Shown: positions 17,925 through 51,570, counted from the first letter of the stretch. The stretch: 64,000 nt of DNA from an uncultured Gemmatimonadales bacterium (GCA_963730185.1 CAVSQW010000007.1:576001-640000); one strand, 5' to 3'. The notes: generated by a model from the letters alone, not told the origin. Made by a program: numbers and translations.

Positions 17925-20591
17925 ATGACCGTCACCGAGCGTCTCTCGCGAGCTCTCGAAGCTCGCTACCGGATCGAGCGCGAGCTGGGCCAGGGCGGGA
18001 TGGCCACCGTCTATCTGGCCCACGATCTCAAGCACGACCGCGACGTCGCCATCAAGGTGCTCCATCCCGATCTCGGGGCGGCCCTCGGAAGCGAGCGGTT
18101 CCTCTCGGAGATCCGGACCACCGCGCGGCTCCAGCACCCCCACATCCTGCCGCTCCTCGACAGTGGCGAGGCCGACGGCCTGCTCTATTACGTGATGCCG
18201 CTGGTGACGGGCGAGACCCTCCGGGCCCGGCTGGACCGCGAGCAGCAGCTGCCGATCGAGGACGCTCTCCAGATCGCGCGCGAGGTCGCCGACGCCCTGG
18301 GTTACGCCCACGGCCTCGGCGTGATCCACCGCGACATCAAGCCCGGGAACATCCTCCTCCAGGACGGCCATGCCTCGGTGGCCGACTTCGGGATTGCCCT
18401 CGCGGTCCAGACCGCCGGCGGCCAGCGGATGACCCAGACGGGCCTGAGCCTCGGCACCCCGCAGTACATGTCGCCCGAGCAAGCGATGGGAGAGCGCGCC
18501 ATCGACGGCCGGAGCGACATCTACGCACTCGGGGCCGTGACTTACGAGATGCTGGCGGGGGAGCCGCCCTTCACCGGGCCCACGGTCCAGGCGATCGTGG
18601 CGCGCCTCTTGTCGGAGGAGCCGAGGAGCCTCGGCGCTCAGCGGAAGTCGGTGCCCGGGCAGGTCGAGCACGCGGTCCGGCGGGCCCTCGAGAAGCTGCC
18701 GGCCGATCGCTGGACCACGGCCCCCGAGTTTGCCGCCGCGCTGGTATCGCCGGGGGCGGCGACCCCGGCGGGAGGCGTCCGCTACCCGGGGGCCCACCCG
18801 AGGAGCTGGCGGGACCGGCTTCGCGATCCCGTCGTCCTGGCGCTGGGAGCCCTGACGGTCGCCAGCATCCTGTTCGCCGGTTGGGCCCGAGCCGGGCGCT
18901 CGGCCGAGCCGGCCGCGCCCGTGGTTCGGTTCTCGATTCCCGCCGCCAAGAGCTCCTCCTTCGGGGCGCTCGGCCTCAACACCCTGGGGATCTCGGCGGA
19001 CGGGAAGCAGCTGGTGTACGTCGGCCAAGGCGCGAACGGGCGCCAGCAACTGATGCTCAGGCCGATCGACGCCGTCGATGCCCGGCCGGTCGAGGGTTCC
19101 GGAGACGGGAACTCGCCGGTCATCTCCCCCGACGGCAAGTGGATCGCCTACACCAACGGACCGGGGCTCTTCAGGGTGCCGGTCACCGGCGGCCGCCCGC
19201 AGGCGCTGAAGCAGGTCACCGGCACCTTCAATGGGATGAGCTGGTCGTCCACCGCGGGTCTCGTGGTCTCGGGTAACACGGCGCTCTACCTCGTTCCGGA
19301 GACCGGCGGCGAGCCTCGGGTGCTGACCCGGGCCGACAGCTCGCGCGACGAGCTGTTTCAGGACGCGCCAGCGGTCGTGGATGCGGCCGGAATCGTGCTG
19401 TACTCGAGCTGGGGCCCCGCGGGCATCGCCGGCGCCCGGATCGCCGTCGCCCCGCTCGCCGGCGGAGAGACGACGATTCTCGACCTCCTCGGGACCCACC
19501 CGCTCGGGATCGTCGACGGCAACCTGGTCTACGTCACGGCCGGCGGCGCCCTGATGGCGGTGCCCTTCGACGTCGCGAAGCGCCGGACGACCGGCGAGCC
19601 GGTCCAGCTGGCGAGCGATCTCTCGGTTAACAGCACGTCGGGGCTGGCCCGGGCCGCCCTGTCGGCGACCGGCACGCTCTTCTATCAGAGCGGGAGCCAG
19701 GTGTCCCGTGTCGTCCTCGCCGGCGTCCACGGCGACATCCGGGCCTTGTTGGACGAGCCCGAGGAGTACGGGTTTCCGCGGCTCTCACCCGACGCCGGGC
19801 GACTGGCCGTCACCCGGGGGAACTCGGGCCATCGCGACATCTGGGTCTACGAGCTGAGCTCGGGGATCCCGACCCGGCTCACCACCCAAGGCTCGACCAA
19901 CGAGCGTCCGGAGTGGACGCCGGACGGAAAGCGGGTCCTGTTCCGGAGCGATCGGAATCAGCGAGGGCGCTCGGAAATCTGGTGGCGGCCGGCGGATCTC
20001 AGCGCCCCCGAGTCGCTGTTGCAGGGCGGCGCCCGGCTGGACGTGTACGAGGCGGTCTTCTCGCCCGACGGCCGGTATCTCGTCGTCCAGATCGACACCT
20101 CGGGCGCGGATCTCTACTACCGCGCGCTCACCGGCGACACCGCGCTCAAGGTCATCGCCGCGACCCCGGCCATCGAGTCGATGCCCCGGGTCTCGCCCGA
20201 TGGGCGGTGGATCGCCTTCGTCACCAACGAATCCGGGTCCAACCAGGTCGTGGTGCAGCCGTTTCCGGGGCCCGGCGGCCGCACCCAGGTGTCCGGCAAC
20301 GGGGGGACCGAGCCGGTGTGGTCGCGCGACGGGAAGCGGCTGTTCTATCGGGGCGACGCCAAGCTGATGGCGGCCACGGTGCGCACCGAGCCCGCCTTCG
20401 CGGTCGTCGCGCGCGACACCGTGTTCGCGGACCGCTACCTCTTCGCGAACAATCCCCACGCCAACTACGACGTGATGCCGGACGGCGAGCACTTCGTGAT
20501 GCTCGAGTCGGCCGGCGAGGGGGTGCTGACCGTGGTGGTGAACTTCCGGGAGGCGCTCCGGGCGCGGATGGCGGGGAGCGGGGAACAATGA
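17925..20591 (+). CDS. Receptor-like Ser/Thr kinase K1: kinase-TM-PD40/TolB beta-propeller
   Basis: Intact kinase motifs (HRDIKPGN, DFG, GTPQYMSPE); TM helix; repeated SPDG blades; terminal NYDVMPDG. Confidence 0.92.
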   Translation: MTVTERLSRALEARYRIERELGQGGMATVYLAHDLKHDRDVAIKVLHPDLGAALGSERFLSEIRTTARLQHPHILPLLDSGEADGLLYYVMPLVTGETLRARLDREQQLPIEDALQIAREVADALGYAHGLGVIHRDIKPGNILLQDGHASVADFGIALAVQTAGGQRMTQTGLSLGTPQYMSPEQAMGERAIDGRSDIYALGAVTYEMLAGEPPFTGPTVQAIVARLLSEEPRSLGAQRKSVPGQVEHAVRRALEKLPADRWTTAPEFAAALVSPGAATPAGGVRYPGAHPRSWRDRLRDPVVLALGALTVASILFAGWARAGRSAEPAAPVVRFSIPAAKSSSFGALGLNTLGISADGKQLVYVGQGANGRQQLMLRPIDAVDARPVEGSGDGNSPVISPDGKWIAYTNGPGLFRVPVTGGRPQALKQVTGTFNGMSWSSTAGLVVSGNTALYLVPETGGEPRVLTRADSSRDELFQDAPAVVDAAGIVLYSSWGPAGIAGARIAVAPLAGGETTILDLLGTHPLGIVDGNLVYVTAGGALMAVPFDVAKRRTTGEPVQLASDLSVNSTSGLARAALSATGTLFYQSGSQVSRVVLAGVHGDIRALLDEPEEYGFPRLSPDAGRLAVTRGNSGHRDIWVYELSSGIPTRLTTQGSTNERPEWTPDGKRVLFRSDRNQRGRSEIWWRPADLSAPESLLQGGARLDVYEAVFSPDGRYLVVQIDTSGADLYYRALTGDTALKVIAATPAIESMPRVSPDGRWIAFVTNESGSNQVVVQPFPGPGGRTQVSGNGGTEPVWSRDGKRLFYRGDAKLMAATVRTEPAFAVVARDTVFADRYLFANNPHANYDVMPDGEHFVMLESAGEGVLTVVVNFREALRARMAGSGEQ

Positions 20592-20601
20592 GGTGCGGGC
20601 C

Positions 20602-23277
20602 ATGAGCGACGGCATCCGTCGGCTCACGGCCGCCCTCGCGGACCGGTACACCATCGAGCGGGAGCTCGGGGCCGGCGGCATGGCGACGGTCTATCTCGCC
20701 GAGGACCTGAGGCACGAGCGCCAGGTTGCGATCAAGGTTCTCAAGCCCGAGCTCGCCGCGGTGCTCGGCGCCGAGCGGTTCGTGCAGGAGATCAAGACCA
20801 CCGCGTCGTTGCAGCATCCGCACATCCTGCCGCTCTTCGATTCGGGCGCCGCCGACGGGTTCCTCTTCTACGTGATGCCGTTCATCGACGGCGAGACGCT
20901 CCGCGCCAAGCTCGACCGCGAGACCCAGCTCGGCGTCGACGAGGCGATCCGGATCACGTGCGAGGTTGCCGACGCGCTGGACTACGCCCACGGGAAGGGG
21001 GTCGTCCACCGCGACATCAAGCCCGAGAACATCCTGCTCGCCAACGGGCGTCCGATGGTAGCCGATTTCGGCATCGCACTGGCGGTCTCCGCGGCGGCGG
21101 GCGGGCGGATGACGGAGACCGGCCTCTCGCTCGGCACGCCGCACTACATGAGTCCCGAGCAGGCGACGGCGGACAAGGAGATCACCGGGCGGAGCGACAT
21201 CTACTCGCTGGCGAGTGTGCTCTACGAGCTGCTCACCGGCGACCCGCCCCATACCGGCTCCTCGGCGCAGCAGATCATCATGAAGATCGTGGCCGAAGAG
21301 GCGGCGCCGGTCACCAAGGTCCGCAAGAGCGTGCCACCCAACGTGGTCGCGGCGCTCTCCCAAGCGCTGGAGAAGGTGCCGGCCGACCGGTTTCGGACCG
21401 CGCTGGAATTCGCGGACGCCCTGGGGAACCCCAACTTCACCACGACGCGGCACCAGGCCGCCGCTCCCGCTGCCGCCTCCCGTCGGAACGCTCTGCTCCT
21501 CGGCGTGGTCGCCGTCGTGGCAGGGTCGGCGGGGGTGTTCGCCGGCCGCGCCCTGGCCGGCTCTGGCGGTGCCAACGCATCCGACGATCCGGTGCATGCG
21601 GCGCTCCCGCTGGGGGACAGCGTCGTCCTCCGCCCGATCAACAACGCCTCCCTGGCCATCTCGCCCGACGGCCGGCGGGTGGCGTTCGTCGGCGTCAACG
21701 GCGCCTCGTCGGGCCTTTGGGTCCGCGAGCTGGGGTCCGACCACGCGGTGAGTCTGCCCGGCACGAACGGTGGAGAGGCGCCGTTCTTCTCTCCCGACGG
21801 GCAGACGGTCGCCTTCCTCCGCAGCACCGGGAGCGGCGCCGATGTCCTGACGACGCCGGCGAGCGGCGGCTCGGTCCAGACCATCGTGAAGGCGGCCGCC
21901 TCAGGCTATGGCGCCTCCTGGGGCGACGACGGCTACATCTACTACTCCGACCGGGGCGCGTCCCTGGCCCGGGTTCCCGCAATCGGTGGCAACTCCGAGG
22001 TGGTCGCCACCGCCGACACCGCGCGGGGCATTCACGAGACCGACTACCCCGATGTCCTCCCGGGCTCCCGGTACGCCGTCGTGCAGCTGTACAAGGGGGC
22101 GGTCGAGGTCAGTTCGGTGGGCCTGATCGACCTCGCGACCGGGGCGACTCGCGAGCTGGCGCCGGCGACGTACGCGCGTTACGTGGACCCGGGAATTCTC
22201 GCCTTCGCGAACGCCGCCGGCGAGATCAGCGTCATGCGCTTCGATCCCGGCAAGGGCGTGCTGCTCGATCCGACGCCCACGCTGGTGCTGTCGGGGGTGC
22301 AGCGGGAGAACAGCAACGGCACCGTGGCCTTCGCGGTGGCCCGTAATGGGACGTTGGTCTACATCGCCGGCCGGAGCGGCGGCGACCGGCTCGTCCGGGT
22401 GACCATGGACGGCACGATCGCGCCGGTGGATTCCTCCCTCAACGGCTCCTTCAGCGCGGCGGCGCTGTCGCCGGATGGACGGAGCGTGGCCCTGTCGCGC
22501 AACGACGCCGGCGCCGAGGGCGTTTGGATCAAGCAGCTCCCGAAGGGCGCGTTGACCCGGCTCACGGGCGACGAGCCGGGCGCCGATCGTCCGGCCTGGA
22601 CTCCCGACGGCCGATCGGTGGCATTCCTCGCCATTCGGGGCGGCCGCCGCGCGGTGTGGATCCGGCGGGCCGACGGCAGCGATCCGTCCGCTCGCCCGCT
22701 CTCGCCGCCGGGCCTCGAGCTCGACGAGGTCGCCTTCGACCCGCGGGGACGCTTCGTCGTCTTCCGGACCTACGGCTCCGCCAGCGGGTCGCGGCACCTG
22801 ATGGTCATGCCGTCGAGCGGGGACAGTGCGCCCCGCCTGCTGATCGCGTCGGCCTTCGATCACTACGCGCCGGCCGTCTCGCCCGACGGGCACTGGATCG
22901 CGTACGTCTCCGAGGAGTCCGGCCGGGCGGAGGTGCTGGTGCGGCCGTTTCCCAACGCGGACTCGGCCCGCATCGCGGTCTCGGTCGGGGGCGGGTACGG
23001 GCCGGCGTGGGCCAAGGACGGGCACACCCTCTACTATCGGGACCCTCGCGGTGCGATGATGGCGGTGGAGATCCGGACCACGCCGGCTTTCTCCCACGGT
23101 ACCCCGCGCACCCTCTTCTTCGACCCGGGCCTGTTGTCGAGCCAGTACCATCGAAGCTACGACGTAGCCCCCGACGGCACGGGCTTTCTGATGATCGAGG
23201 CGCAGCAGCAGGCGAACGCCCAGATCAGGGTGGTCCTCGGATGGAGGCAGCAAATCGAGCGGGCGGCGGCACGATGA
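20602..23277 (+). CDS. Receptor-like Ser/Thr kinase K2: kinase-TM-PD40 beta-propeller
   Basis: HRDIKPEN, DFG, GTPHYMSPE; TM helix; SPDG repeats. Confidence 0.92.
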   Translation: MSDGIRRLTAALADRYTIERELGAGGMATVYLAEDLRHERQVAIKVLKPELAAVLGAERFVQEIKTTASLQHPHILPLFDSGAADGFLFYVMPFIDGETLRAKLDRETQLGVDEAIRITCEVADALDYAHGKGVVHRDIKPENILLANGRPMVADFGIALAVSAAAGGRMTETGLSLGTPHYMSPEQATADKEITGRSDIYSLASVLYELLTGDPPHTGSSAQQIIMKIVAEEAAPVTKVRKSVPPNVVAALSQALEKVPADRFRTALEFADALGNPNFTTTRHQAAAPAAASRRNALLLGVVAVVAGSAGVFAGRALAGSGGANASDDPVHAALPLGDSVVLRPINNASLAISPDGRRVAFVGVNGASSGLWVRELGSDHAVSLPGTNGGEAPFFSPDGQTVAFLRSTGSGADVLTTPASGGSVQTIVKAAASGYGASWGDDGYIYYSDRGASLARVPAIGGNSEVVATADTARGIHETDYPDVLPGSRYAVVQLYKGAVEVSSVGLIDLATGATRELAPATYARYVDPGILAFANAAGEISVMRFDPGKGVLLDPTPTLVLSGVQRENSNGTVAFAVARNGTLVYIAGRSGGDRLVRVTMDGTIAPVDSSLNGSFSAAALSPDGRSVALSRNDAGAEGVWIKQLPKGALTRLTGDEPGADRPAWTPDGRSVAFLAIRGGRRAVWIRRADGSDPSARPLSPPGLELDEVAFDPRGRFVVFRTYGSASGSRHLMVMPSSGDSAPRLLIASAFDHYAPAVSPDGHWIAYVSEESGRAEVLVRPFPNADSARIAVSVGGGYGPAWAKDGHTLYYRDPRGAMMAVEIRTTPAFSHGTPRTLFFDPGLLSSQYHRSYDVAPDGTGFLMIEAQQQANAQIRVVLGWRQQIERAAAR

Positions 23278-24155
23278 CCAGTCGGCTCCGCGACGCCCTC
23301 GCCGACCGCTACCGGATCGAGCGCGAGGTCGGCCAGGGCGGGATGGCGACCGTCTACCTGGCCCACGATCGCAAGCACGATCGCGACGTGGCCCTCGAGG
23401 TGCTCCGCCCGGAGCTCGCCGCCGCGCTCGGCGCGGAGCGGTTCCTGGCCGAAGTGAAGATCACCGCCCGGCTCGATCATCCCCACATCTTGACCCTGAT
23501 CGACTCGGGCGAGGCCGGCGGCACGCTCTTCTACGTGATGCCGTTCGTCCGGGGCGAGTCGCTCCGCGCCCGGCTGGATCGCGACCGGCAGCTCGGGCTC
23601 GACGCAGCGATCGGCATAACCCGCCAGATCGCGTCCGCCCTCGACCGGGTGACCTCCCGGAGCTCGGCGATGCAGTTCGCCGGCAAGCGCCGGCCGGCGG
23701 CGCCGGAAATCGCCAAGGCGCTGGACGTGGATGCGATCGTGGAAGGGTCGGGCACCCGGTCCGGCGACAAGGTGCGGATCACCGCCCAGCTGATCGCCGC
23801 CCGGGCCGACCAGCATCGGTGGGCGCAGAGCTTCGAGCGCCAGTCGAGCGACGTCCTCACCCTCCAGGCGGAGCTGGCCTCGGTCTGGCTCTCGAGCTCG
23901 GAGGTCCTCTACCGCTCCGGGGCGACCTGGCACACGGTCCGGATCGACCCGGCCACCGGGGAGCCGGAGGGCCCCGCGTCGCCGTGGGGGACCGACCCGC
24001 GGTTCTCCGACACCTTCGGCTGGTCCACCCGCCCGGACTGGCACGGCGGCATCGTTTACCTTGAAAACCCCGAGGATACCCACGCGACCTACTTCCGGGT
24101 CGTGCCCGACTGGGTCGCCCGGATGGAGCGTGCCGTGGACGAGGCGAACCGATGA
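23274..24155 (+). pseudogene. K3: in-frame chimera of kinase N-lobe, TolB-N-like segment and propeller C-terminus (catalytically dead)
   Basis: 293-aa open frame; VALEVL replaces VAIKVL; HRD/DFG absent; junctions at QIASALD|RVTSRSS and QAELA|SVWLSS. Confidence 0.82.
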
Positions 24156-26803
24156 CCCCGATACCCGACCGGCTGGCGGCCGCGTTGGCCGACCGCTACC
24201 GGATCGAGCGGGAGCTCGGCCAGGGCGGGATGGCCACGGTCTATCTGGCCGAAGACCTCAAGCACCGCCGCCCGGTGGCGATCAAGGTGCTCCGGCCCGA
24301 CCTGGCCGCCAGTCTCGGCCCCGACCGGTTCATGCAGGAGATCGACATCGCCGCCCGGCTCCAGCACCCCCACATCCTGCCGGTGCACGATTCCGGCGAG
24401 GCCGGCGGCTTCCTCTTCTACGTGATGCCGTACGTCGAGGGCGAGTCGCTCCGGGAGCGGCTGACCAATCACGGCGAGCTGCCGGTCCACGACGCCGTGC
24501 GGCTTCTGGTCGAGATCGCCGACGCCCTGGCCTACGCCCACTCGCACGGCGTCGTGCACCGCGACATCAAACCGGAGAACATCATGCTCTCCGGGCGCCA
24601 CGCGCTGGTGACGGACTTCGGCGTCGCCAAGGCGGTGAGCGAGGCGAGCGGGCGGAACCGGCTCACCACGGCGGGCGTCGCGCTGGGCACGCCGGCCTAC
24701 ATGGCGCCCGAGCAGGCCAGCGCCGATCCCAACCTCGACCAGCGGGTGGACATCTACGCCCTGGGCGTGCTGGGCTACGAGCTCCTGGCCGGTCGGCCAC
24801 CGTTCGTGGGGGGGACGCCGCAGCAGGTGCTGGCCGCGCACGTGACGACGGCGCCGGAGCCGGTCACCACGCACCGGACCACGGTGTCTCCTGCGCTCGG
24901 CGCGGTCATCATGCGGGCGCTGGAGAAGCGCCCGGCCGACCGCTGGCAGACGGCCGACGAGCTCCTCGGCCAGCTGGAGCCGCTGGCCACGCCGTCGGGC
25001 GGGCTGACGCCCACCCAGATGCGCCCGGCGGTGCCGGGGCGGGGCGGGCGCCGCTGGATGCTCTGGGGCCTCGGCGCCGTCGCCCTCGCCGCGACGGCCG
25101 TGGCCGTCACCCTGCTCGTGTCGCGGCGGCCGCCCACACTCGTGCTCGGCAAGCGGGTGGCGATCGCGGCGGGTCCCGAGCTCGAGACCTGGCCTTCGCT
25201 CTCCGGGGATGGGAAGCTCCTGGCTTACACGAGCCGCGGGGGCGACGGGTGGTCGGTGCAGGTGCGGCAGGTGGACGGCGGCACGCCGGTGAGCATCACG
25301 GGCCGGGAGCCCGGCTCGGTGGGATTCGGGATGCTCTCGCCGGATGGGACCCGGCTCCTGGTGACCACGCCGGCCGGGATCCAGGTGGTGCCGTCGTTAG
25401 GCGGGCAGATGCGGCTCGTGGCCGATCTTGGCGCTGGGCAGCCGGCCGATCAGAGCTTTCCGGCCAACCCTTACGCTCTCTGGGCGGCGACCTGGAGCCC
25501 CGACGGCGCTCGGGTTGCCTACACCAGCCTCGACACGCTCTACGTGCAGTCGATCGACGGCTCGAGCCGGACGGCGCTCGCCACCGGCACGTGGGTCCAT
25601 TCACCGGCCTGGTCGGACGACGGCTGGATCGCCTACGTCGAGGGCAATACCAATTTTCACACCGAAGGAAACCTGGCCCCGAGTCAGCTCCGCCTGGTCC
25701 GAGCCTCGGGCGGGACGCCAATCGACCTGACCGGGCGGGGCACGCTCAACACCAGCCCCGTCTGGGTTCCCGAGCGGCGCGCATTGCTTTTCATCTCGGA
25801 CCGCGACGGCGGGCGCGACATCTACGAGCTCTTCCTGACCCGGTCCGGTCAGCCCTCGGGGCCGCCCGTCCGGGTGACGACCGGCCTCAATCCCGAGCGC
25901 CTGGCCATGTCGGCCGATGGGAAATGGCTCGCCTGGTCCGTGTACACGGAGACCGCCAACGTCTGGTCGCTCCCCGTGCCGGCGCGCGACTCGGTCTCCA
26001 TCCGCCAGGCGACGCCGGTCACGCAGGGCGCCCAGGTCATCGAGAACCTGAGCGTGTCGCGCGACGGCGTCTGGCTCTACTACGACTCCGACCGGAGCGG
26101 CGTCGCCAACATCTGGCGGCAGCGCATTGCCGGGGGGCCGCCCGAGCAGCTGACCGACGACTCGGTGGCGAACTTCGCCCCGGGGGTCTCGCCGAGCGGG
26201 AACGAGGTCGCCTTCCATTCGTTCCGGACCGGGAATCGCGACATCTTCGTGATTCCCTCCTCCGGCGGGCCGGCGCGGCAGGTGACCACCAGCCCGACGC
26301 ACGACTGGAACGCGCGCTGGATGGACGACAGCACCCTGGTATTCGACGAGCAGACGTCGGCCGATAGCTCGATCTGGACGGCCCGCCGCCACCCGGACGG
26401 CAGCTGGGGGCCACCCAAGCCCATCCTCGTCCCCGGGGTGAGCAATATCGCGAACATTCGGCCCTCGCCGGACGGCCGGTGGCTGGGGGTCATCACCCTG
26501 TCCGGCGTTGGGGTGATCGACCTCCGCACGATGGCCTACCGACAAGTCGTGCCGGTCGTGGCCTACGTGGCCTGGTCCGCCGACAGCCGGACGCTCTACC
26601 TCGGGACGGCGGCGGACGCGAGCGGGCATTGGAAGATTCTGGCGGCGTCGCCCGAGGGCGGGCCGGTGCGGACCGTCGCGTACGGCAACGACCCGATTAC
26701 GGAGGGGCGGCGTTTCGGGCTCGAATTCTCCGGCGGCCGGCTCTACGTTCCGCTGGTCGAGCGGAAGGGCGACATCTGGGTGGCGGAGGTGCGGGAGAAG
26801 TGA
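24152..26803 (+). CDS. Receptor-like Ser/Thr kinase K4: kinase-TM-PD40 beta-propeller (divergent kinase subtype)
   Basis: HRDIKPENIML, DFGVAK, GTPAYMAPE; TM helix; TolB-like repeats (SDRDGGRDIY, SDRSGVANIW). Confidence 0.92.
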   Translation: MTPIPDRLAAALADRYRIERELGQGGMATVYLAEDLKHRRPVAIKVLRPDLAASLGPDRFMQEIDIAARLQHPHILPVHDSGEAGGFLFYVMPYVEGESLRERLTNHGELPVHDAVRLLVEIADALAYAHSHGVVHRDIKPENIMLSGRHALVTDFGVAKAVSEASGRNRLTTAGVALGTPAYMAPEQASADPNLDQRVDIYALGVLGYELLAGRPPFVGGTPQQVLAAHVTTAPEPVTTHRTTVSPALGAVIMRALEKRPADRWQTADELLGQLEPLATPSGGLTPTQMRPAVPGRGGRRWMLWGLGAVALAATAVAVTLLVSRRPPTLVLGKRVAIAAGPELETWPSLSGDGKLLAYTSRGGDGWSVQVRQVDGGTPVSITGREPGSVGFGMLSPDGTRLLVTTPAGIQVVPSLGGQMRLVADLGAGQPADQSFPANPYALWAATWSPDGARVAYTSLDTLYVQSIDGSSRTALATGTWVHSPAWSDDGWIAYVEGNTNFHTEGNLAPSQLRLVRASGGTPIDLTGRGTLNTSPVWVPERRALLFISDRDGGRDIYELFLTRSGQPSGPPVRVTTGLNPERLAMSADGKWLAWSVYTETANVWSLPVPARDSVSIRQATPVTQGAQVIENLSVSRDGVWLYYDSDRSGVANIWRQRIAGGPPEQLTDDSVANFAPGVSPSGNEVAFHSFRTGNRDIFVIPSSGGPARQVTTSPTHDWNARWMDDSTLVFDEQTSADSSIWTARRHPDGSWGPPKPILVPGVSNIANIRPSPDGRWLGVITLSGVGVIDLRTMAYRQVVPVVAYVAWSADSRTLYLGTAADASGHWKILAASPEGGPVRTVAYGNDPITEGRRFGLEFSGGRLYVPLVERKGDIWVAEVREK

Positions 26804-29873: not shown

Positions 29874-29874
29874 G

Positions 29875-42632: not shown

Positions 42633-42802
42633 TCGGCCCAGCGGCTCCACTCCAGTCGGCGCCGCCGATCCGCCACGCCCAACCCTAAGGCGGCGGCCGC
42701 TTCCCCGTCTCGCACTCCCCCGTGTCGGGTTCCCGCGCAAATCCGCTCTCCCCTTTGACGAGCCCGCATTCGCGCGGCGCCCGGTCTTCCAGGGGAGAGA
42801 TC

Positions 42803-43520
42803 ATGACGACGACACCACGATGGCTGGCATTGGGGCTGCTGGTTCTGGCGGCCTGCGGACCGGAATCGGTCACCGCCCCCGAACGACGCGGAGCTGGCGG
42901 GCGCCGAGGCCTTCCTGTCGACCAGCTGCGGCAGCTGTCACCGCGGGCCGGCGTTCACCGACCACCGGTTCCACAACGTGGCCGTGGCGCAGGTCGGCCC
43001 GGGCGAGGGCGATGGGGTCGGCGGCACCGACGACTTCGGCCGGGAGCGGGTGACCGGCGACGCCGCCGATCGCTATCGCTTCCGGACCACCCCGCTTCGG
43101 AACGTCGTGCTCACCGGCCCCTACGGCCACGACGGGGCGTTTCCGTCGCTCCGCGAGTTCGTCGCGCACTACTCCGAGGCGGAGGCCAAGCTGCGCCAGT
43201 TCGACGTCGGCACGATCGAGCCGCTGCTCCGGGGAACGCTGGTGGCCAACGCCGACGCCGTAGTCTCGACCATGGACCGGCGGCTCGACGGGCTGGTGCT
43301 GACGAGCGACGTCGTGGACCAGCTGACCACCTTCATGGAGGCGCTGACCGACCCGGCCGCGACGCACCTCGATCGGCTGATTCCCGGGCGGGTGCCGAGC
43401 GGGCTGCCGGTCGAGGGCTGCTTCAGGAATTTTCGTCGATACCCCGCCGAAGTGTCGCGTAACTCGATTGCGGGACTATATTTGGCTGACCGCAGGCCAG
43501 CAGCCTGGCAGCACCCGTAA
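42803..43520 (+). pseudogene. Internally deleted di-haem cytochrome c peroxidase (CCP/MauG-like) gene
   Basis: Lipoprotein signal (LLVLAAC) joined out of frame near 42880 to the second haem domain: SCGSCHRGPAFTDHRFHN, FRTTPLRNVVLTGPYGHDG; first haem domain missing. Confidence 0.78.
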
Positions 43521-43650
43521 CGACAGCTTTTGAACTGCTCCCTGACCGCACCCGACCGGGGTCGGTCCAGCCGGCTTGATCGACCAAGCCGGCCACCAGG
43601 GTACCGATGACGGGAAGCCTCACCATTCAAGGCCCGGGTCGGGCGTCGCG
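43452..43650 (+). promoter_or_regulatory. Conserved promoter plus structured 5' leader, copy 1 (upstream of K11)
   Basis: Aligns with 54411-54606; contains CTATATTTGG and nested stems cccgt/acggg, ccctg/caggg, gaccg/cggtc and gccggc/gccggc. Confidence 0.55.
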
Positions 43651-46275
43651 GTGACGGACGCCTCATCCCGACTCACGTCCGCGCTCGCCGATCGCTACCG
43701 GATCGAGCGGGAGCTCGGGGCGGGCGGGATGGCCACGGTGTATCTCGCGGAGGACCTGAAGCACGACCGCAAGGTCGCCATCAAGGTCCTCAAGCCCGAG
43801 CTGGCCGCGGTGCTGGGCGCCGAGCGGTTCGTGCAGGAGATCAAGACCACCGCGGCCCTCTCCCATCCGCACATCCTGCCCCTGTTCGACAGCGGCGAGG
43901 CCGGCGGGTTCCTCTACTACGTGATGCCCTACATCGAGGGCGAGACCATTCGGGACCGCCTCAACCGGGAGACCCAGCTCGGCGTGGACGAGGCGGTCCG
44001 GATCACGGTCGAGGTGGCCGACGCCTTGGACTACGCCCACCGGCATGGGGTGATCCACCGGGACATCAAGCCGGAGAACATCCTGCTGCACGACGGGCGG
44101 GCGATGGTGATGGACTTCGGGATCGCGCTGGCGGTGAGTGCCGCGGCCGGGGGGCGGATGACGGAGACGGGGCTCTCGTTAGGCACGCCGCATTACATGA
44201 GCCCCGAGCAGGCCACGGCCGACAAGCAGATCACGGCGCGCTCGGACGTCTACTCCCTGGCCAGCGTGCTCTACGAGATGCTGGCCGGCGAGCCGCCCCA
44301 TCTGGGCAACTCGGCGCAGCAGATCATCATGAAGATCGTGACCGACGAGGCCCGGCCGGTCAGCGATCTCCGGAAGGCGACCCCGCCGAACGTCGTGGCG
44401 GCCGTGAGCCGGGCGCTCCAGAAGCTGCCGGCGGACCGCTTCGCGTCGGCGAGCGAATTCGGGGCGGCGCTCACGGGCGGCCCCGGGGCGCTGCCGCTCA
44501 GTGCCGGTGCCGGGACGGCAGCGGGATCCGTCACCCGGTGGCGGCGGCTTGCGCTCGGGGCCGGCGTCGTGGCGGCGGTGGCCGTCGCCGTCCTGCTCTG
44601 GACCCTGGCCCGCCGGGCGCCGGGCGGCCCGGCGGACGGGCCGATCGCGTTCACCTTTCGGCCCAGCCTGAATCAATCCCAGCGGATCGGCATCGCGATC
44701 TCGCCAGACGGCCGGCAGATCCTGATTCCGGCGCCGGACTCGAACGGGGTCGAGGGTCTCCTGGTCAGGGACCTGGCCTCGCCGGGCGTCGCGTGGATCC
44801 CGGGCGCGGCGCGGGCGTCGGAAGCCAGCTTCTCTCCCGACGGCCGGTGGGTGGTCTACGACGCCGACTCCAAGCTGTACAAGGTCCCGGTGGCCGGCGG
44901 CCCGCCGGTGGAGCTGGTCGACTCGCTCAGGCCGACGGGAGCGTTCTGGGGGGCCAACGGCTGGATCGCCTTCTCGGCGTCCAACGCCGGACTCTGGCGG
45001 GTGCGGGAGTCGGGCGGCGAGCCGGAGCAGCTCACCCGGCTCGACTCGACCCGGCGGGAGTTCGCGCACTTCGCCCCGGTCGAGCTTCCGGGTGGCAAGG
45101 CGGCGATCTACAACAGCTACGCCACGCCGCTCGCCCGCTCGCGGATCGAAGCGGTCGAGTACGCCACCGGCCGGAAGACGGTGCTGGTCGATGGCGCGAT
45201 CCTCCCTCGTTACCTCGACGGCTACCTGCTCTACGTTCGGGACGGCGCCATCTTCGCGGCGCCCTTCGATCCCGGCCGGCTCAAGGTGCTCGCGCCGGCC
45301 GTGCCGGTGGTGGAGGACGTTGCCTGGGATCTGACCGAAGGCAGCGCCGGATACTCGGTGTCCGACAACGGCACGCTGGTGTACCTCAAGGCGTCGGCCT
45401 GGAACCAGGAGCGGCAGGTCGTCTGGGTGGACCGGCAGGGCAACGCGCGGCCGGCGCTTCCCCGGCCCGGACAGTGGGCGGAGCCCCGGATCTCGCCCGA
45501 CGGCCGGTGGCTGGCCGTCACGGGACTGGACCCGTCACACCAAATCTGGCTCTTCGATCGGACCCGCCGGGTGCTCACCCAGCTGACCCACTCGGCGGGG
45601 GCGTCGTTCGACCCGAACTGGATGCCCGACAGCCGTTCTCTGGCCTACTCCCTCGAGACACCGGTGTACGATGTGGGGCGAATCTCGATCGACGGCGGGA
45701 CCGTGGACACGGTCCTGATGACCCCGATCGACAAGCTCCCGAGCGCGGTTTCGGCCGACGGCAAGCTGGTGGCCTATACGGGCTACGGGAACCGCCAGGT
45801 GACCGGGGTGGCCCCGATCGACGGGAGCCGGCCCCCGGTGGTCGACGATGACGGGCGGGACCGCGCCAACCAGGCCTTTTCGCCCGACGGCCGGTGGCTG
45901 GCGTACGAGGAGGTCGTCTCGGACCGGCCGCAGGTCTTCGTTCGCCTGATGAGCGGCGGCGGCCGCCGGCAGGTCTCGGCGACCGGGGGCACCCAGCCCC
46001 GCTGGACCAAGGGGGGCAGGGAGCTCGTCTACCGCGACGGCGACGCGGTGTACGCCGTCTCCTTCCAGCCGGCCACCGGCGACCCGGGCACTCCGATGCG
46101 CCTCTTCGCCTTGCGGGATGCCGGCCGGGTCAACCGGGACCGCACCGTCGGCTACGACGTCACCCCCGACGGGTCGGAGTTCCTGATGGTGGAGCCGGTG
46201 GTGCGGCCCGAGGTTCAGCCGGTGGTGGTGATCGTCGATTGGATCGCGCAGCTCCGGAAGAAGGTGCCCCGATGA
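43651..46275 (+). CDS. Receptor-like Ser/Thr kinase K11: kinase-TM-PD40 beta-propeller
   Basis: GTG start (VTDASSRLTSALADRY); intact kinase; TM helix; SPDG blades. Confidence 0.92.
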   Translation: MTDASSRLTSALADRYRIERELGAGGMATVYLAEDLKHDRKVAIKVLKPELAAVLGAERFVQEIKTTAALSHPHILPLFDSGEAGGFLYYVMPYIEGETIRDRLNRETQLGVDEAVRITVEVADALDYAHRHGVIHRDIKPENILLHDGRAMVMDFGIALAVSAAAGGRMTETGLSLGTPHYMSPEQATADKQITARSDVYSLASVLYEMLAGEPPHLGNSAQQIIMKIVTDEARPVSDLRKATPPNVVAAVSRALQKLPADRFASASEFGAALTGGPGALPLSAGAGTAAGSVTRWRRLALGAGVVAAVAVAVLLWTLARRAPGGPADGPIAFTFRPSLNQSQRIGIAISPDGRQILIPAPDSNGVEGLLVRDLASPGVAWIPGAARASEASFSPDGRWVVYDADSKLYKVPVAGGPPVELVDSLRPTGAFWGANGWIAFSASNAGLWRVRESGGEPEQLTRLDSTRREFAHFAPVELPGGKAAIYNSYATPLARSRIEAVEYATGRKTVLVDGAILPRYLDGYLLYVRDGAIFAAPFDPGRLKVLAPAVPVVEDVAWDLTEGSAGYSVSDNGTLVYLKASAWNQERQVVWVDRQGNARPALPRPGQWAEPRISPDGRWLAVTGLDPSHQIWLFDRTRRVLTQLTHSAGASFDPNWMPDSRSLAYSLETPVYDVGRISIDGGTVDTVLMTPIDKLPSAVSADGKLVAYTGYGNRQVTGVAPIDGSRPPVVDDDGRDRANQAFSPDGRWLAYEEVVSDRPQVFVRLMSGGGRRQVSATGGTQPRWTKGGRELVYRDGDAVYAVSFQPATGDPGTPMRLFALRDAGRVNRDRTVGYDVTPDGSEFLMVEPVVRPEVQPVVVIVDWIAQLRKKVPR

Positions 46276-48937
46276 CGGCGCCGGGTCGGCTCGCCGCGGC
46301 TCTCCGGACCGCTACCGGATCGAGCGGGAGCTCGGCGCGGGCGGCATGGCGACCGTGTATCTGGCCGAGGATCTCAAGCACGACCGGAAGGTCGCGATCA
46401 AGGTGCTGAAGCCGGAGCTGGCGGCGGTGCTGGGCGCCGAGCGGTTCGTGCAGGAGATCAAGACCACGGCGGCGCTCTCGCATCCGAACATCCTGCCGCT
46501 CTTCGATTCCGGCGAGGCCGGCGGCTACCTGTACTACGTGATGCCGTACCTCGAGGGCGAGACCATCCGCGAGAAGCTGAACCGCGAAGCGCAGTTCGGG
46601 ATCGAGGAGGCACTGAAGATCACGACCGAGGTGGCCGAGGCGCTGGAGTATGCCCACCGGCACGGCGTGATCCATCGCGACATCAAGCCGGAAAACGTCC
46701 TGCTGCACGCCGGGCGCCCGATGGTGATGGACTTCGGGATCGCGCTCGCGGTGTCCGCCGCGGCGGGCGGGCGGATGACGGAGACGGGGCTGTCGTTAGG
46801 CACGCCGCACTACATGAGCCCCGAGCAGGCGACGGCGGACAAGCAGATCACGGCCCGGAGCGACGTCTACTCGCTGGCGAGCGTGCTCTACGAGATGCTG
46901 GCGGGGGAGCCGCCGCACACGGGCGGGTCGGCCCAGGCGATCATCATGAAGATCGTCACCGACGTGCCCCGGCCGGTGACCGAGCTGCGCAAGAGCGTGC
47001 CGCCGAACGTCGAAGCGGCGCTGAGCAAGGCGCTGGAGAAGGTGCCGGCCGATCGCTTCGCCACGGCGCAGGCGTTCGCGCAGGCGCTGCACGACCCGGC
47101 GAGCGCGGCGATGCTCGCCGCCCGGGGCGCGGTGGCCGGCGGTGGATGGAAGGCCAATGTCCGGAATCCGGTCGTGTGGGTCCTCGCGCTCCTCGCCGCC
47201 GGGGCGTCGGCGCTGGCCATGCACGAGCGGTCGGCCGCTTGGGCGGCCGGGCCCGACGCCGTGGTCCGCTTCAAGGTGACCATGCCGGCGGGGTCTCAGC
47301 TCGCCCTCGACGACCCGCAGGGGCCCGATCTGGCGATCTCGGCCGACGGCTCGACCGTGGCCTTCCCGGCGGGCGACCGGCAAGGCCGGCGGCAGATCTA
47401 CGTGCGCCGGCTGGACGAGCCGGTCGCGCGGGCGCTCCCCGGAACCGACGGCGGCTTTCTCCCGGCCTTCTCGCCCGACGGGACCCGCCTCGCCTTTTGG
47501 GTTGCCGGCCGGGTGGCGACGATCTCCCTCGACGGCGGGGCGCCGCACGCCGCCGGCGAGTTCGGGAGCCTCAACGCCCTCCGCTGGGTCAGCGACGGCG
47601 AGCTGATCTTCGCCGCCGGGTCCACGCTAGGACCGCGCCGGATCATGCGGGTGGCCGTCGCCGGTTGTGAGCCGCGCCCGGTCGCACCCCTGGATACCGC
47701 CCATGGCGAGATGGGCCAGTTCTTCCCGGTGGCCCTCCCGGACGGGAAGCACGTGCTGTACGAGAGCTGGGGACACGGCGCCGCCGAGGATGCCCGGATC
47801 GGGATGCTCGACCTCGAGACGGGACGGGCCCGGCGGCTCGATCTTCCCGGGACGACGCCCCTCGGGGTCTTGGACGGCACGCTCATCTACGCGGATCAGA
47901 CGGGGACCATCCTCGCGGTGCCGTTCGACGTGAGGTCGGGATCCGTCGGCGGGCGCCCGGTGCCGGTGGGCGGCGGCGTGGCAACCAGCGCCCGGGGCCT
48001 CGCCGTGGCGAGTCTCTCGCCCACGGGCACCCTCGCGTACAAGGGCGGGAGTGCCGAGGCGACTCTCGTGCTGGCGAACGCCTCCGGGGAGGCGGCGCTC
48101 CTGCCGACTCCGGATGCCCGCGCCTTCGCGTTTCCACGCTACTCCCCCGACGGGTCCAAAGTCGCCCTGGCCGTCGGGAGCGGCACCTCCACCGACGTGT
48201 GGGTAGCGGACGTCGCGTCGGGAAATCTTCTCCGCTTGAGCAACGGGGGGAGCGTCAACGACCGCCCCGAATGGTCCCCGGATGGCAAACAGGTTCTCTT
48301 CCGGACGGTGCGTGGCGGTCGCTCGGCCATCTGGTGGCAACCGGCGGATCAGAGCGCGCCCGCCACGCCCCTCGTGGCGAACGACAGCGCGGACTACTTC
48401 GAGGCGGTCGTCACGCCGGATGGCCGGCAGCTGGTGTTCCAGGTGGACAATGGACAGGCGGACGTCATGAGGCGGCCGATCGGGGGCGGCGGCGCGACGC
48501 CGATCGCGAACACCCCTGCGCTCGAGTCCCAGGCCCGGGTGTCTCCCGACGGCCGGTGGGTGGCGTTGGTCAGCGACGCCGACGGCGCCCCTCGGGTGGT
48601 GGTCCAGCCGCTGACCGGTCCGGGGGCCAAGGTACCGATCTCGCTTCGCGGCGGGAACGAGCCGGTGTGGTCGCGAGATGGCCGGCGGATCTTCTACCGT
48701 GCCGAGGGCAAGTTCCGGGTCGCCGAGGTGTCGGCCTCGCCGACGTTCCGGGTCGTGTCCCGTCACGACTTCATGGTCGATGGCTACCTGACGTCTCCCG
48801 CGCCGCATGCCAACTACGACGTGGCCCCCGACGGGAAGAGCCTCCTGGTCCTCAAGGGCGAGGCCGCCGACTTGTTGGTCGTGCACGGGTGGATCTCGGA
48901 AGTCCGGGCGAAGCTGGCGGAGGGAGGGGGGCGATGA
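46272..48937 (+). CDS. Receptor-like Ser/Thr kinase K12: kinase-TM-PD40 beta-propeller, 1-bp frameshift near 46305
   Basis: ATGA overlap with K11; MTAPGRLAAAL, then a shift to DRYRIERELG; remainder intact. Confidence 0.9.
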
Positions 48938-51570
48938 CGGATCGGATCGCCGCGGCCCTCGCCGACCGCTACCGCCTCGAGCGCGAGCTGGGGCAGGGCG
49001 GGATGGCCACGGTCTACCTGGCCGAGGACTTGAAGCACGACCGCAAGGTCGCGATCAAGGTCCTGAAGCCGGAGCTGGCGGCGGTGCTCGGTGCCGACCG
49101 GTTCGTGCAGGAGATCAAGACCACCGCGGCACTCTCCCACCCGCACATCCTCCCGCTCTTCGACAGCGGCGAGGCCGGGGGCTTCCTCTATTACGTCATG
49201 CCCTACATCGAGGGCGAGACGATCCGGGACCGGCTCAACCGGGAGACCCAGCTCGGCGTGGAGGAGGCGGTTCGAATCACGGTCGAGGTGGCCGACGCCC
49301 TGGATTACGCCCACCGGCACGGGGTGATCCACCGGGACATCAAGCCCGAGAACATCCTGCTGCACGACGGCCGGGCGATGGTGATGGACTTCGGGATCGC
49401 GCTGGCGGTGAGCGCGGCCGCCGGCGGGCGGATGACGGAGACAGGGCTCTCGTTGGGCACCCCTCACTACATGAGCCCCGAGCAGGCCACGGCGGACAAG
49501 GACCTCACCAATCGGTCCGACCTCTACTCGCTGGGCTCGGTGCTCTACGAGATGCTGACCGGTGATCCGCCGCACACGGCCTCCTCGGCCCAGGCGATCA
49601 TCATGAAGATCGTGACCGAGGACGCGGCGCCGGTCACCCGGCTTCGGAAGAACGTCCCGTCCAACGTGGCGGCGGCCGTGGCCCGGTCGCTCGAGCGGCT
49701 CCCGGCCGATCGGTTCGAGACCGCGAAGGCCTTCGCCGAGGCGCTCACCAATCCCGGGTTCACGGCGAGGGTCGGCGGCACGCTGGGGCTCTCCCCGGGC
49801 GCGGCGCCTCGCCGGTCCTTCCTGGTCGCGAGCCTCGTCGTCGCGGTGCTGCTGCTGGGCGGGTTGGCCGCCTGGGGCTGGCTCCGGCCCGAGCCTCGAG
49901 CGCCGGTGGCGCGGTTTCTGGTCTCGGTGCCCGACAGTCAGCCGTTGGCGCGCGGTCCGTACGCGGGGCTACAGATCACCGCCGACGGCCGCCGGCTGGG
50001 TTATCTCGGGGTCGGAGCCGACGGGGTGGTCCGGGTGTTCGTCCGCGACTTCGCCGCCTTCGATGCGCTCCCGGTCACCGGATCGGAGCGCGCCGATGGC
50101 TTCGCGTTCTCGCCGGATGGCAAGGAGATGATGGTGCTGGCCGATGGACAATTGCGGCGCACGGGCTGGTCGGGCGCGGCGCCGCGAACCATCGGTGATT
50201 CGGCGCTGGCCGGCGGCATCGTCTGGGGGGACGATGGCTTCGTTTATTTCACCGACCTGGCGGGGAACCTGGTCCGGAGGGCGGCCGCCGGCGGCCCCGT
50301 CGAGCGAATGGCCGAGACGTCCGGAAGGGAGCTGCGCGCCTGGCTCGACGTGTTTCCCGGGGGCCGCGCGGGACTCGTCCTCGAGACCCCGCCGGCGGTA
50401 ACCGGCCGCGAACCCACGGTAGCGATCCTCGACTTCTCGACCGGGACGACGCGGCCACTCGTCCGCGGGGCAAAGGCGGTATACCGGGCCGGGCTGGTCG
50501 TCTTCGGGCGCAGCGACGGAACGCTCTGGGCCGGACCATTTGACCTGCACCGGCTCGCGTTCCTCCGGGAGCCGATCCAGGTGGGCCGAGCGGGGGTCAG
50601 GGTGGCGCACGTGAGGGACTTGTTGTTCGCCGTCTCCGGCACCGGGACCCTGATCTATCTCCTGCCGTCGCCTCACGGCATGTCGCCGGTCCGGCTCGGG
50701 CGCGACGGCCGCCAGGTACCGTATCCGTTCACGGCTCCGTTCTCGCTCGGCCCCAGGCTGTCGCCGGAAGGGCGGCGGCTGGCGGCCACGTTGTCCGATG
50801 GGCCCGCCTCCGACGTCTACGTGGTCGACCTGCCCACCGGCAGCACCACCCGGCTGACCTTCGACCGCGCCAGCGGGTACCCGGAGTGGTCGCCGGACGG
50901 TCGTCGGGTCGGGTACTACAGCCTCGCCGACAGCACCTATCGGCTGCTCTGGCGAGTTGCCGACGCGTCGGCGCCGGCCGAGCAGCTGATCCGGGGCCCA
51001 TGGCGGCCGATCGAGGTCGCCTTCCTGCCGGGCGGGCGCGCCTTCATCACCCGCGAGGGCGATCGATCGACCACGGACAACGCCGACCTGATCCGCTACG
51101 ACCGGGCGGGGGACAGCCTGACCCGCACCCCGCTGACCCGCACGCCGGCCAACGAGCGGAGCCCGATGATCTCGCCGGACGGGAGGTACGTCGCCTATGT
51201 CTCGGACGAAGGCGGCAGCGACCAGATCTACGTTCGGGAGACCCGACCCTCCGACGAGGTCTGGCGGGTGTCCCCGGACGGCGGCCGGGAGCCGCTCTGG
51301 GGCCGGAGCGGTCGTGAGCTGTTCTACCGGGGCCGGGGCCAGCTGATCCGCGTCGGAGTTCGGACCAGCCCGAGCTTCGCGGTGACCGAGCCGGCCCGGG
51401 AGCTGTTCCCGGCCGGCGCGTTCCTGGAGAACTTGAATCACACCGCCTACGGGATCCTCCCCGGTGACACCGCCTTCGTGTTTGTCAGAGCGGCCCCGTC
51501 GGACGATCGGGTCGCGGTGGTGTTGAACTGGACGGCCGAGGTGAAGGCGCAATTGGCGGGCAAGCGTTAG
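48934..51570 (+). CDS. Receptor-like Ser/Thr kinase K13: kinase-TM-PD40 beta-propeller
   Basis: ATGA overlap with K12; intact kinase; TM LLLGGLAAWGWLRP; terminal VVLNWTAEVK. Confidence 0.92.
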   Translation: MTDRIAAALADRYRLERELGQGGMATVYLAEDLKHDRKVAIKVLKPELAAVLGADRFVQEIKTTAALSHPHILPLFDSGEAGGFLYYVMPYIEGETIRDRLNRETQLGVEEAVRITVEVADALDYAHRHGVIHRDIKPENILLHDGRAMVMDFGIALAVSAAAGGRMTETGLSLGTPHYMSPEQATADKDLTNRSDLYSLGSVLYEMLTGDPPHTASSAQAIIMKIVTEDAAPVTRLRKNVPSNVAAAVARSLERLPADRFETAKAFAEALTNPGFTARVGGTLGLSPGAAPRRSFLVASLVVAVLLLGGLAAWGWLRPEPRAPVARFLVSVPDSQPLARGPYAGLQITADGRRLGYLGVGADGVVRVFVRDFAAFDALPVTGSERADGFAFSPDGKEMMVLADGQLRRTGWSGAAPRTIGDSALAGGIVWGDDGFVYFTDLAGNLVRRAAAGGPVERMAETSGRELRAWLDVFPGGRAGLVLETPPAVTGREPTVAILDFSTGTTRPLVRGAKAVYRAGLVVFGRSDGTLWAGPFDLHRLAFLREPIQVGRAGVRVAHVRDLLFAVSGTGTLIYLLPSPHGMSPVRLGRDGRQVPYPFTAPFSLGPRLSPEGRRLAATLSDGPASDVYVVDLPTGSTTRLTFDRASGYPEWSPDGRRVGYYSLADSTYRLLWRVADASAPAEQLIRGPWRPIEVAFLPGGRAFITREGDRSTTDNADLIRYDRAGDSLTRTPLTRTPANERSPMISPDGRYVAYVSDEGGSDQIYVRETRPSDEVWRVSPDGGREPLWGRSGRELFYRGRGQLIRVGVRTSPSFAVTEPARELFPAGAFLENLNHTAYGILPGDTAFVFVRAAPSDDRVAVVLNWTAEVKAQLAGKR

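What the first reader, a model, noticed from the sequence alone, without database searches (positions are those of the whole stretch)
17925..51570. Tandem array of 13 receptor-like kinases with a constant kinase and highly variable sensor: candidate recombination-diversified receptor repertoire
Seen: 13 co-oriented genes over about 34 kb. The first 270 or so codons of the full-length members are highly similar, with long nucleotide-identical tracts. Everything after the TM helix is so divergent that mainly the SPDG blade motifs align. Two sensor classes occur: PD40/TolB propeller, and TolB-N plus TPR. Established: Hanks-type kinase-TM-sensor architecture, and kinase-PD40 fusions individually. 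Inference: a shared signalling output coupled to a panel of different extracytoplasmic sensors, held in a birth-and-death array, analogous in logic to plant receptor-like kinase clusters. It could serve surveillance of environmental, predator or phage ligands. No phosphatase or FHA partner is encoded in the window.
Basis: partly seen in the sequence, partly recalled or inferred. Interest (0 to 1): 0.9.

Follow-up and report, generated by a model that had tools for sequence, protein, structure and literature searches.

The report
Receptor kinase array swapping kinase heads
A Gemmatimonadota-type bacterium carries a real row of a dozen membrane receptor kinases whose outer sensor parts are old, distinct and conserved, while their inner kinase parts are copied and swapped between neighbours, so many different sensors probably feed one shared signal.

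Summary
The array is real: 13 co-oriented genes at 17925-51570. Twelve have complete, catalytically intact Hanks kinases; one is a collapsed chimera. More copies and remnants continue past the window end. Sensors are double six-bladed TolB-like propellers (10 genes) or TolB_N-TPR (2). It is not an assembly concatenation.

Exact shared tracts are short (95 nt at most). Recombination is supported: kinase and sensor trees conflict, while the sensor's two propellers agree. Kinases group by genome and sensors across genomes. One relative shows a kinase-only tract of about 790 nt with 5 differences. But sensors are old lineages under purifying selection (dN/dS 0.16-0.40): the kinase is homogenised, the sensor is not hypermutated.

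Tandem runs occur in 37 of 80 Gemmatimonadota loci. Likely function: a panel of periplasmic receptors feeding one phosphorylation output; ligand and substrate unknown, and no evidence for phage or predator sensing. My ten literature searches found no description, but this scan noted the same pattern earlier in other Gemmatimonadota and Acidobacteriota genomes. New variant of a known kind.

The parts
17925..20591 (+). K1: type-B kinase, TM, double propeller (888 aa); sensor is of the K12 family
20602..23277 (+). K2: type-A kinase, TM, double propeller (891 aa)
23274..24155 (+). K3t: in-frame collapsed chimera: kinase N-lobe, TolB_N piece of a TPR-class sensor, C-terminus of a propeller sensor; no HRD/DFG
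   Evidence: second junction also covered by an independent contig (X2 record 9)
24152..26803 (+). K4: divergent kinase type (58% to K2), TM, a different PD40 propeller type (883 aa)
26804..27223 (+). Spacer with a short signal-peptide-like gene remnant and an AT-richer promoter-like stretch
   Evidence: sequence read directly; promoter role is inference
27224..29873 (+). K5: type-A kinase, TM, propeller; several 1-nt frameshifts in this assembly that related contigs lack
29875..32538 (+). K6: type-A kinase, TM, double propeller (887 aa)
32558..34940 (+). K7: TPR-class kinase, TM, TolB_N-TPR; one frameshift near 33700
34951..37340 (+). K8: recent duplicate of K7; one frameshift at a homopolymer near 36453, absent from an independent contig
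37351..40011 (+). K9: type-A kinase, TM, double propeller (886 aa); sensor not found at E<=1e-60 in 21 congeneric genomes
40008..42632 (+). K10: type-A kinase, TM, double propeller (874 aa); sensor 71% identical to a gene in G011
42633..43650 (+). Spacer: remnant of a MauG/cytochrome c peroxidase-like gene, then a ~200-nt leader that recurs at 54407-54613 (79% identical)
43651..46275 (+). K11: type-A kinase, TM, double propeller (874 aa); sensor modelled as two six-bladed propellers
46272..48937 (+). K12: type-A kinase, TM, double propeller; 1-nt frameshift near the start (~46305)
48934..51570 (+). K13: type-A kinase, TM, double propeller (878 aa); sensor 66% identical to L034_10001
51962..52760 (+). 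R14: remnant of at least three genes: kinase N-lobe, propeller piece, K8-like TPR end, next kinase start (87.5% nt to the K8-K9 junction)
54407..54920 (+). R15: copy of the K11 leader plus an internally deleted kinase
59614..59750 (+). R16: short type-A kinase remnant
62600..64000 (+). K17: type-A kinase, TM, propeller; start codon uncertain; runs past the window end with one frameshift; followed outside the window by K18 (kinase with a non-propeller C-terminal domain)

Best explanation
A panel of single-pass receptor Ser/Thr kinases of a Gemmatimonadota-wide family, held in operon-like tandem blocks (several genes joined by ATGA stop/start overlaps). Shown: each gene joins a cytoplasmic-type Hanks kinase, one helix and a double six-bladed propeller or TolB_N-TPR domain. 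The sensor is inherited as one intact unit. The ~800-nt kinase part, repeated every ~2.65 kb, is exchanged between neighbours by gene conversion and is also where genes are gained, lost or collapsed, so kinase-sensor pairings are reshuffled and kinases homogenised within a genome. Inferred: the sensors lie in the periplasm and bind different peptide- or protein-like ligands (the TolB and LRP6 propellers among the fold hits are solved with bound peptides). Binding clusters the receptors, the kinases activate through N-lobe dimers as described for PknB/PknD, and, because type-A kinases share one activation segment, they phosphorylate the same substrates, probably read by FHA proteins and reset by PP2C phosphatases encoded elsewhere. 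In logic this is an OR gate: many inputs, one output, as in chemoreceptors. Confidence: recombination about 0.85, shared output about 0.6, ligand class about 0.35.
For: Kinase vs sensor trees of 77 of 170 genes: 6 of 74 splits shared; 15 of 21 supported kinase splits conflict with a supported sensor split; AU p 1.9e-58 and 0.004. Internal control, propeller 1 vs propeller 2 in 129 genes: 35 of 50 supported splits shared, 1 conflicting, rho 0.58, 0 of 81 close pairs discordant; kinase vs propellers rho 0.09 and -0.003. All four pairings of two kinase types and two sensor families exist (K1, K11, K12, L088_12646, L066_10019). Kinase DNA tree of 39 rows groups by genome ({K5,K6,K10} 98/94; {K9,K11,K13,K17} 100/95; two G011 pairs), sensors group across genomes. 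Forcing kinases to follow sensor orthology is rejected for 2 of 3 pairs (p 0.018, 0.009). In G027 two array genes share a ~790-nt tract with 5 differences that starts and ends at the kinase borders; sensors 25.5% identical. Own type-A kinases: synonymous identity 0.69 vs 0.61 from codon usage; Sawyer P 0.0005; 77-nt run not reached in 400 simulations. G011 has an extra gene between two genes that are adjacent in G009; G008 has one leader and 5' end on two different kinase classes. Activation segment identical in 90 of 110 type-A kinases. Model pLDDT 93.9; C-terminal propeller matches TolB at Z 27.8, rmsd 2.4 A over 241 residues. 7 FHA ORFs and 4 PP2C matches in the genome.
Against: Conversion in this genome is old and patchy: against GC3-matched foreign genes synonymous identity is 0.655, so the excess is small; the site-permutation null reaches 77 nt with P 0.02, and Sawyer's longest-fragment test is not significant (P 0.45). 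With codon positions 1+2 only, 1 of 3 pair tests is rejected (p 0.028, 0.088, 0.18); K13/L034 is never rejected. Own type-A kinases are not one clade (4 changes; AU p 0.15). The comparison set was picked by likeness to K9's kinase, which inflates kinase constancy. The array holds four kinase types with different activation segments, so 'one output' can apply only to type A. Topology rests on hydropathy; K/R before the helix exceed those after it in 8 of 12 proteins. No ligand, substrate or expression data.
Confidence: 0.65

Rival explanations
1. An ordinary old paralogue cluster. Kinases look alike through purifying selection and codon bias; conversion is an occasional by-product of tandem arrangement without functional meaning, and each receptor has its own local substrate.
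For: Kinases of unrelated Gemmatimonadota are as similar (79-88% aa) as array neighbours. Kinase dN/dS 0.04-0.23. GC3 of 0.94-0.96 explains part of the synonymous identity. Streptomyces keeps five clustered kinases, none of which alone complements the five-fold mutant (PMC4416010, passages).
Against: Selection alone cannot give a 790-nt, 5-difference tract bounded at the kinase, genome-wise grouping of kinases, or reciprocal kinase/sensor pairings. It does remain possible that this exchange has no adaptive role.
Confidence: 0.2
2. An immune-like surveillance repertoire: the sensors recognise phage, predator or competitor proteins in the periplasm and trigger a common defence response, as proposed for tandem plant receptor-like kinases.
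For: Gain, loss and collapse of genes; K9's sensor not found in 21 congeners; tandem plant RLK arrays show conversion, duplication and deletion (PMC3136440, passages); TolB propellers are solved with colicin peptides.
Against: Sensor orthologues are under purifying selection over the whole domain (dN/dS 0.16-0.40 in 10 pairs). PADLOC hits (PD-T4-6, MAD6) cover the kinase domain only and no NCBIfam defence model reaches its cut-off. Flanking genes with a family are metabolic or regulatory. Site-level selection was not tested.
Confidence: 0.12
3. Assembly artefact: repeats from different strains or loci concatenated by a long-read assembler.
For: Six of 14 full-size genes of the cluster are frameshifted, against 1 of 35 control genes. 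The left-flank acyl-CoA dehydrogenase had no match at E<=1e-150 in 40 relatives.
Against: No two copies exceed about 85% nt identity over the kinase. Contigs from four independent studies cover sensors across 23-43 kb and bridge K5-K6, K6-K7 and K8-K9 (records 11, 4, 22). Tandem runs occur in 37 of 80 other loci.
Confidence: 0.02

Closest known systems
Mycobacterium tuberculosis PknD (receptor Ser/Thr kinase with a six-bladed beta-propeller sensor; PMC3601408 passages, PMC1847690 abstract)
   Same: Hanks kinase, one TM helix, extracytoplasmic propeller; kinase domain closest to PknB among solved structures (E 9e-59); N-lobe dimer activation is the expected mechanism
   Different: [quoted passage not shown]
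Streptomyces coelicolor SCO4775-4779 cluster of five Ser/Thr kinases (PMC4416010, passages)
   Same: Tandem cluster of Hanks kinase genes with overlapping roles
   Different: Five genes transcribed separately; here 12 or more, many joined by ATGA overlaps; no kinase exchange mentioned in the passages read
Campylobacter group A chemoreceptors Tlp2-4/11 (PMC6433261, passages)
   Same: Different periplasmic sensors on near-identical signalling halves that act as recombination repeats; many inputs to one pathway
   Different: MCP signalling domain, not a kinase; dispersed repeats that mediate inversions; signalling halves far more identical than here
Plant tandem receptor-like kinase arrays, e.g. 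the Arabidopsis OAK cluster (PMC3136440, passages)
   Same: Tandem receptor kinases with conversion, duplication and deletion; cytoplasmic domains broadly equivalent, ectodomains decisive
   Different: Eukaryotic, different ectodomain fold, inverted topology (sensor N-terminal); analogy only
Prokaryotic kinases with PD40, WD40 or TPR domains (PMC2877116, passages)
   Same: These are listed among the commonest partner domains of prokaryotic Ser/Thr kinases
   Different: The main text does not mention Gemmatimonas (0 hits); no array or exchange in the passages read; its supplement of architectures was not read

Membership tests
Hanks-type bacterial receptor Ser/Thr kinases | Pkinase domain with Gly-loop, VAIK Lys, HRD, DFG, APE | tested here: met
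   12 of 13 genes; K3t lacks HRD/DFG
Hanks-type bacterial receptor Ser/Thr kinases | Single TM helix between kinase and C-terminal domain | tested here: met
   One hydropathy peak 1.77-2.76 in 12 of 13 proteins scanned; prediction only
Hanks-type bacterial receptor Ser/Thr kinases | C-terminal domain outside the cytoplasm; ligand-regulated kinase activity | not testable with these tools
   Charge bias weak, 8 of 12; no biochemistry
PknD orthologues | Single six-bladed propeller sensor and score over the PknD model cut-off | tested here: not met
   Two propellers; 146 bits against 839. Works like PknD, is not PknD
PknB/Stk1 PASTA kinases | PASTA repeats | tested here: not met
   No PASTA in Pfam scan; 304 bits against 450, kinase part only
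TolB-like PD40 propeller fold | Six-bladed propeller superposable on TolB | tested here: met
   Z 27.8, rmsd 2.4 A, 241 residues, 18% identity, C-terminal propeller of K11
Concertedly evolving paralogue families (gene conversion) | Paralogues group by genome; bounded near-identical tracts; incongruence with unconverted parts | tested here: met
   clear in G027, moderate in this genome
Diversifying immune-type receptor repertoires | Positive selection or hypervariability of the ligand-binding domain among orthologues or alleles | tested here: inconclusive
   Whole-domain dN/dS 0.16-0.40 argues against; site-level and strain-level tests not run
Anti-phage kinase systems (PD-T4-6, MAD6, PglW) | Full-length match and system partners | tested here: not met
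   Matches cover the kinase domain only; no partner among the 29 flanking ORFs scanned with Pfam
Cassette-exchange systems with a dedicated recombinase | Recombinase or invertase gene and specific recombination sites | tested here: inconclusive
   None among the 29 flanking ORFs scanned (12 had no family); no genome-wide search made

The most novel reading that the evidence does not exclude
Gemmatimonadota (and, per earlier scan notes, Acidobacteriota) run a bacterial counterpart of plant receptor-kinase immunity: the conserved kinase serves as a built-in recombination handle through which intact sensor modules are traded between neighbours and strains, keeping a changing panel of periplasmic pattern-recognition receptors for foreign proteins wired to one conserved response.
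Probability: 0.12. Interest if true: 0.85.

Novelty: new variant of a known kind. Interest (0 to 1): 0.5.

Why it matters
The family is large (over 5,100 sensor relatives among 8,000 candidates scored) and tandem runs are common in this phylum of little-cultured bacteria. If type-A kinases share one output, finding one substrate would explain many receptors at once, and kinase-head swaps give a simple test. It also shows that the 'many sensors, one homogenised signalling domain' design known from chemoreceptors and plant receptor kinases occurs in bacterial Ser/Thr signalling. The parts and the recombination process are known; ligands and output are not.

Tried and rejected
Assembly concatenation: rejected. 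Hypermutated sensors: not seen at whole-domain level. Recombination inside the sensor: not seen; the two propellers are congruent. One recent in-genome expansion of all type-A kinases: own kinases need 4 changes on the tree; a single clade is neither found nor rejected (p 0.15). Conserved synteny of the locus: the left-flank gene had no match at E<=1e-150 in 40 relatives, and of 11 flank proteins only a distant M28 peptidase hit the fetched loci; not found with these queries, not shown absent. Structured RNA in the leaders: no Rfam match in the window; the ~200-nt leader has no blastn match in the relatives' loci. Sigma-70 promoter scan: 0 sites in 37401-57400; the first half was not scanned. 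Same sensor fused to other output domains: no other full-length high-scoring sensor match in this genome. Expression: no RNA holder listed. Joints in the laid contigs have short sides and high depth and likely come from other organisms' kinases; not used. Two hints (X1 record 8 leaving the reference near the end of K8; X3 record 19 entering K6 with 101 unlike letters) may be strain-level rearrangements but could not be read. No whole-length structural match: best Foldseek TM-scores 0.37. Complex prediction was not run: a kinase-kinase pair would likely pass by likeness to PknB. Literature searches found no paper on this family or its arrays; PMC7159879 has 0 hits for 'gemmatimonad'. Subscription papers and supplements were not seen.

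Full report
Setting. The window is G000:C7:576001-640000 of a 5.27-Mb, 17-contig genome, 82% complete. All 80 closest kinase loci from the genome collection are titled Gemmatimonadota, so I take the organism to belong there; its own name is not given.

What is there. Twelve ORFs in 17925-51570 carry intact Hanks motifs; a thirteenth (K3t) is a 293-aa chimera of a kinase N-lobe, a TolB_N piece and a propeller C-terminus. Ten genes have PD40 propeller sensors and two have TolB_N-TPR ('TolB_N' is my recalled label for the domain before the TPRs). Five junctions are ATGA overlaps and five are gaps of 1-19 nt; two longer spacers hold remnants of unrelated genes and leader sequences. The cluster continues with three remnants, K17 and K18: 18 of the genome's 59 kinase loci lie here. 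All 11 kinase-propeller genes found in the genome are in this cluster, while TPR-class kinases also occur singly elsewhere. The AlphaFold model of the K11 sensor (117 sequences, pLDDT 93.9) gives two propellers. The C-terminal one matches TolB (Z 27.8, rmsd 2.4 A, 241 residues); whole-model hits are tandem-propeller proteins such as LRP6 with a different arrangement (TM 0.37 at best).

Is it real? Yes. Copies are 70-85% identical at DNA level over the kinase; the closest pair, K7/K8, is 83% over 2.97 kb. Contigs from four independent soil or subsurface studies, laid on 23001-43000, cover sensors along the array and bridge K5-K6, K6-K7, K8-K9 and the second K3t junction; none spans the whole. 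They lack five 1-nt insertions of K5 and the K8 deletion, so these breaks are probably assembly errors. However, 6 of 14 full-size genes are broken against 1 of 35 control genes, and strain-specific decay is not excluded. The breaks in K12, K17 and K18 were not tested.

How constant is the kinase? Among nine intact genes, mean identity is 0.71-0.81 over the first 200 columns and 0.22-0.36 after the helix. Eight of the twelve kinases form type A; K1, K4 and K7/K8 are other types. Type A is equally conserved across the phylum (79-88%), and its 33-residue activation segment is identical in 90 of 110 proteins. That set was selected by likeness to K9. Longest exact DNA runs are 95 nt (K7/K8), 77 (K5/K10) and 62 (K9/K12).

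Distribution. 41 of 41 genomes searched have relatives. Of 80 loci, 37 hold two or more adjacent co-oriented copies, 15 hold three or more, one holds seven; many contigs are short and a few loci share a contig.

Recombination. I compared 170 full-length genes (161 foreign, 9 own). Trees used 77 of them: members of sensor families with two or more members, the own intact genes except K4, and four added array neighbours. Kinase and sensor trees share 6 of 74 splits; 15 of 21 supported kinase splits conflict with supported sensor splits; each alignment rejects the other tree. As a control, the two propellers of the sensor agree in 129 genes: 35 of 50 supported splits shared, 1 in conflict. K1 has a type-B kinase with a K12-family sensor, and L088_12646 has a K1-like kinase (82%) with a K11-family sensor (52%), so all four pairings exist. 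On a DNA tree of 39 type-A kinases (own, same genus, or GC3 at least 0.925) kinases group by genome, whereas the K10, K11, K13 and K6 sensors each group with foreign genes at support 1.0. Forcing sensor orthologues together on the kinase tree is rejected for K10 and K11 but not K13, and on positions 1+2 only for K11. The clearest case is in G027: a tract of about 790 nt with 5 differences that begins and ends at the kinase borders, between genes whose sensors are 25.5% identical. In this genome the signal is older: synonymous identity 0.69 against 0.61 (codon null) and 0.655 (GC3-matched foreign genes); Sawyer sum-of-squares P 0.0005, longest-fragment P 0.45.

Birth and death. G011 carries an extra receptor gene between two that are adjacent in its close relative G009, and G008 has the same leader and 5' end on a TPR-class and on a propeller-class gene. 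In the window, K3t and R14 are collapses of two and at least three genes, R14 preserving a second copy of a K8-K9-like junction; R15 repeats the K11 leader. K9's sensor was not found in 21 congeners.

Selection. In 10 sensor-orthologue pairs, whole-sensor dN/dS is 0.16-0.40 and kinase dN/dS 0.04-0.23 (Nei-Gojobori, dS partly near saturation). The five within-array pairs with unrelated sensors give saturated values and were not used. Sensors therefore evolve faster than kinases but are conserved lineages.

Mechanism. Shown: architecture, fold, kinase exchange, gene turnover. From established knowledge: N-lobe dimerisation activates PknB and PknD (PMC3601408, passages); PknD phosphorylates a sigma-factor regulator (PMC1847690, abstract). 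Inferred: periplasmic location, peptide- or protein-like ligands, cross-activation and a shared substrate set for type A, read by FHA proteins and PP2C phosphatases elsewhere in the genome (7 ORFs and 4 matches, some adjacent to each other). A phage or predator ligand is possible but unsupported: defence-library hits are kinase-only.

Known and new. Kinase-PD40 and kinase-TPR fusions are catalogued (PMC2877116, passages). A five-kinase cluster is known in Streptomyces (PMC4416010, passages). Varied sensors on recombining signalling halves are known in Campylobacter chemoreceptors (PMC6433261, passages) and plant RLK arrays (PMC3136440, passages). Ten searches found no paper on these arrays; subscription papers and supplements, such as the architecture file of PMC2877116, were not seen. 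Earlier notes of this scan describe the same pattern in other Gemmatimonadota and in Acidobacteriota; they are leads, not support. Verdict: real, larger than any array among the loci I fetched, a new variant of a known kind; interest 0.5.

Noticed in passing
window 11706-11795: A further ~90-nt kinase fragment left of the ETF/Fe-S/acyl-CoA dehydrogenase genes (74-78% nt to array kinases), so remnants also lie on the other side of the array.
   Followed up: no
window 43448-43650 and 54407-54613: A ~200-nt leader duplicated at 79% identity before K11 and remnant R15, with a TATATT hexamer and GC-rich inverted segments; no Rfam match, no match in relatives' loci.
   Followed up: partly
window 42803-43520: Signal peptide fused to the C-terminal third of a MauG/cytochrome c peroxidase-like gene; a paralogue at 64% aa lies on contig C8.
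   Followed up: partly
window 52827-54386: A 519-aa protein with a signal-peptide-like start, fibronectin type III repeats and a C-terminal domain of no known family; paralogues on C6 and C7.
   Followed up: partly
window 59826-62345: DoxX, YCII and ECF sigma (DUF6596) genes directly upstream of K17.
   Followed up: no
L001:15287-20000 (just past the window end): K18 carries a C-terminal domain that looks like an alpha/beta hydrolase by eye, without a clear TM helix; it is followed by what look like an ECF sigma, an anti-sigma and a TPR protein. All are broken by frameshifts in this assembly.
   Followed up: no
window 2414-3817: A separate Ser/Thr kinase (43% to K2) next to an MprF-like lysyltransferase and an M28 peptidase.
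   Followed up: no
L015:16340 and L016:4294 (G027): Near-perfect kinase-only conversion tract of about 790 nt between two array genes 8 kb apart.
   Followed up: yes
window 32558-37340: K7 and K8 show falling identity from about 0.9 in kinase and TolB_N to about 0.75 in the TPR end, suggesting continued exchange of the 5' part after duplication.
   Followed up: partly
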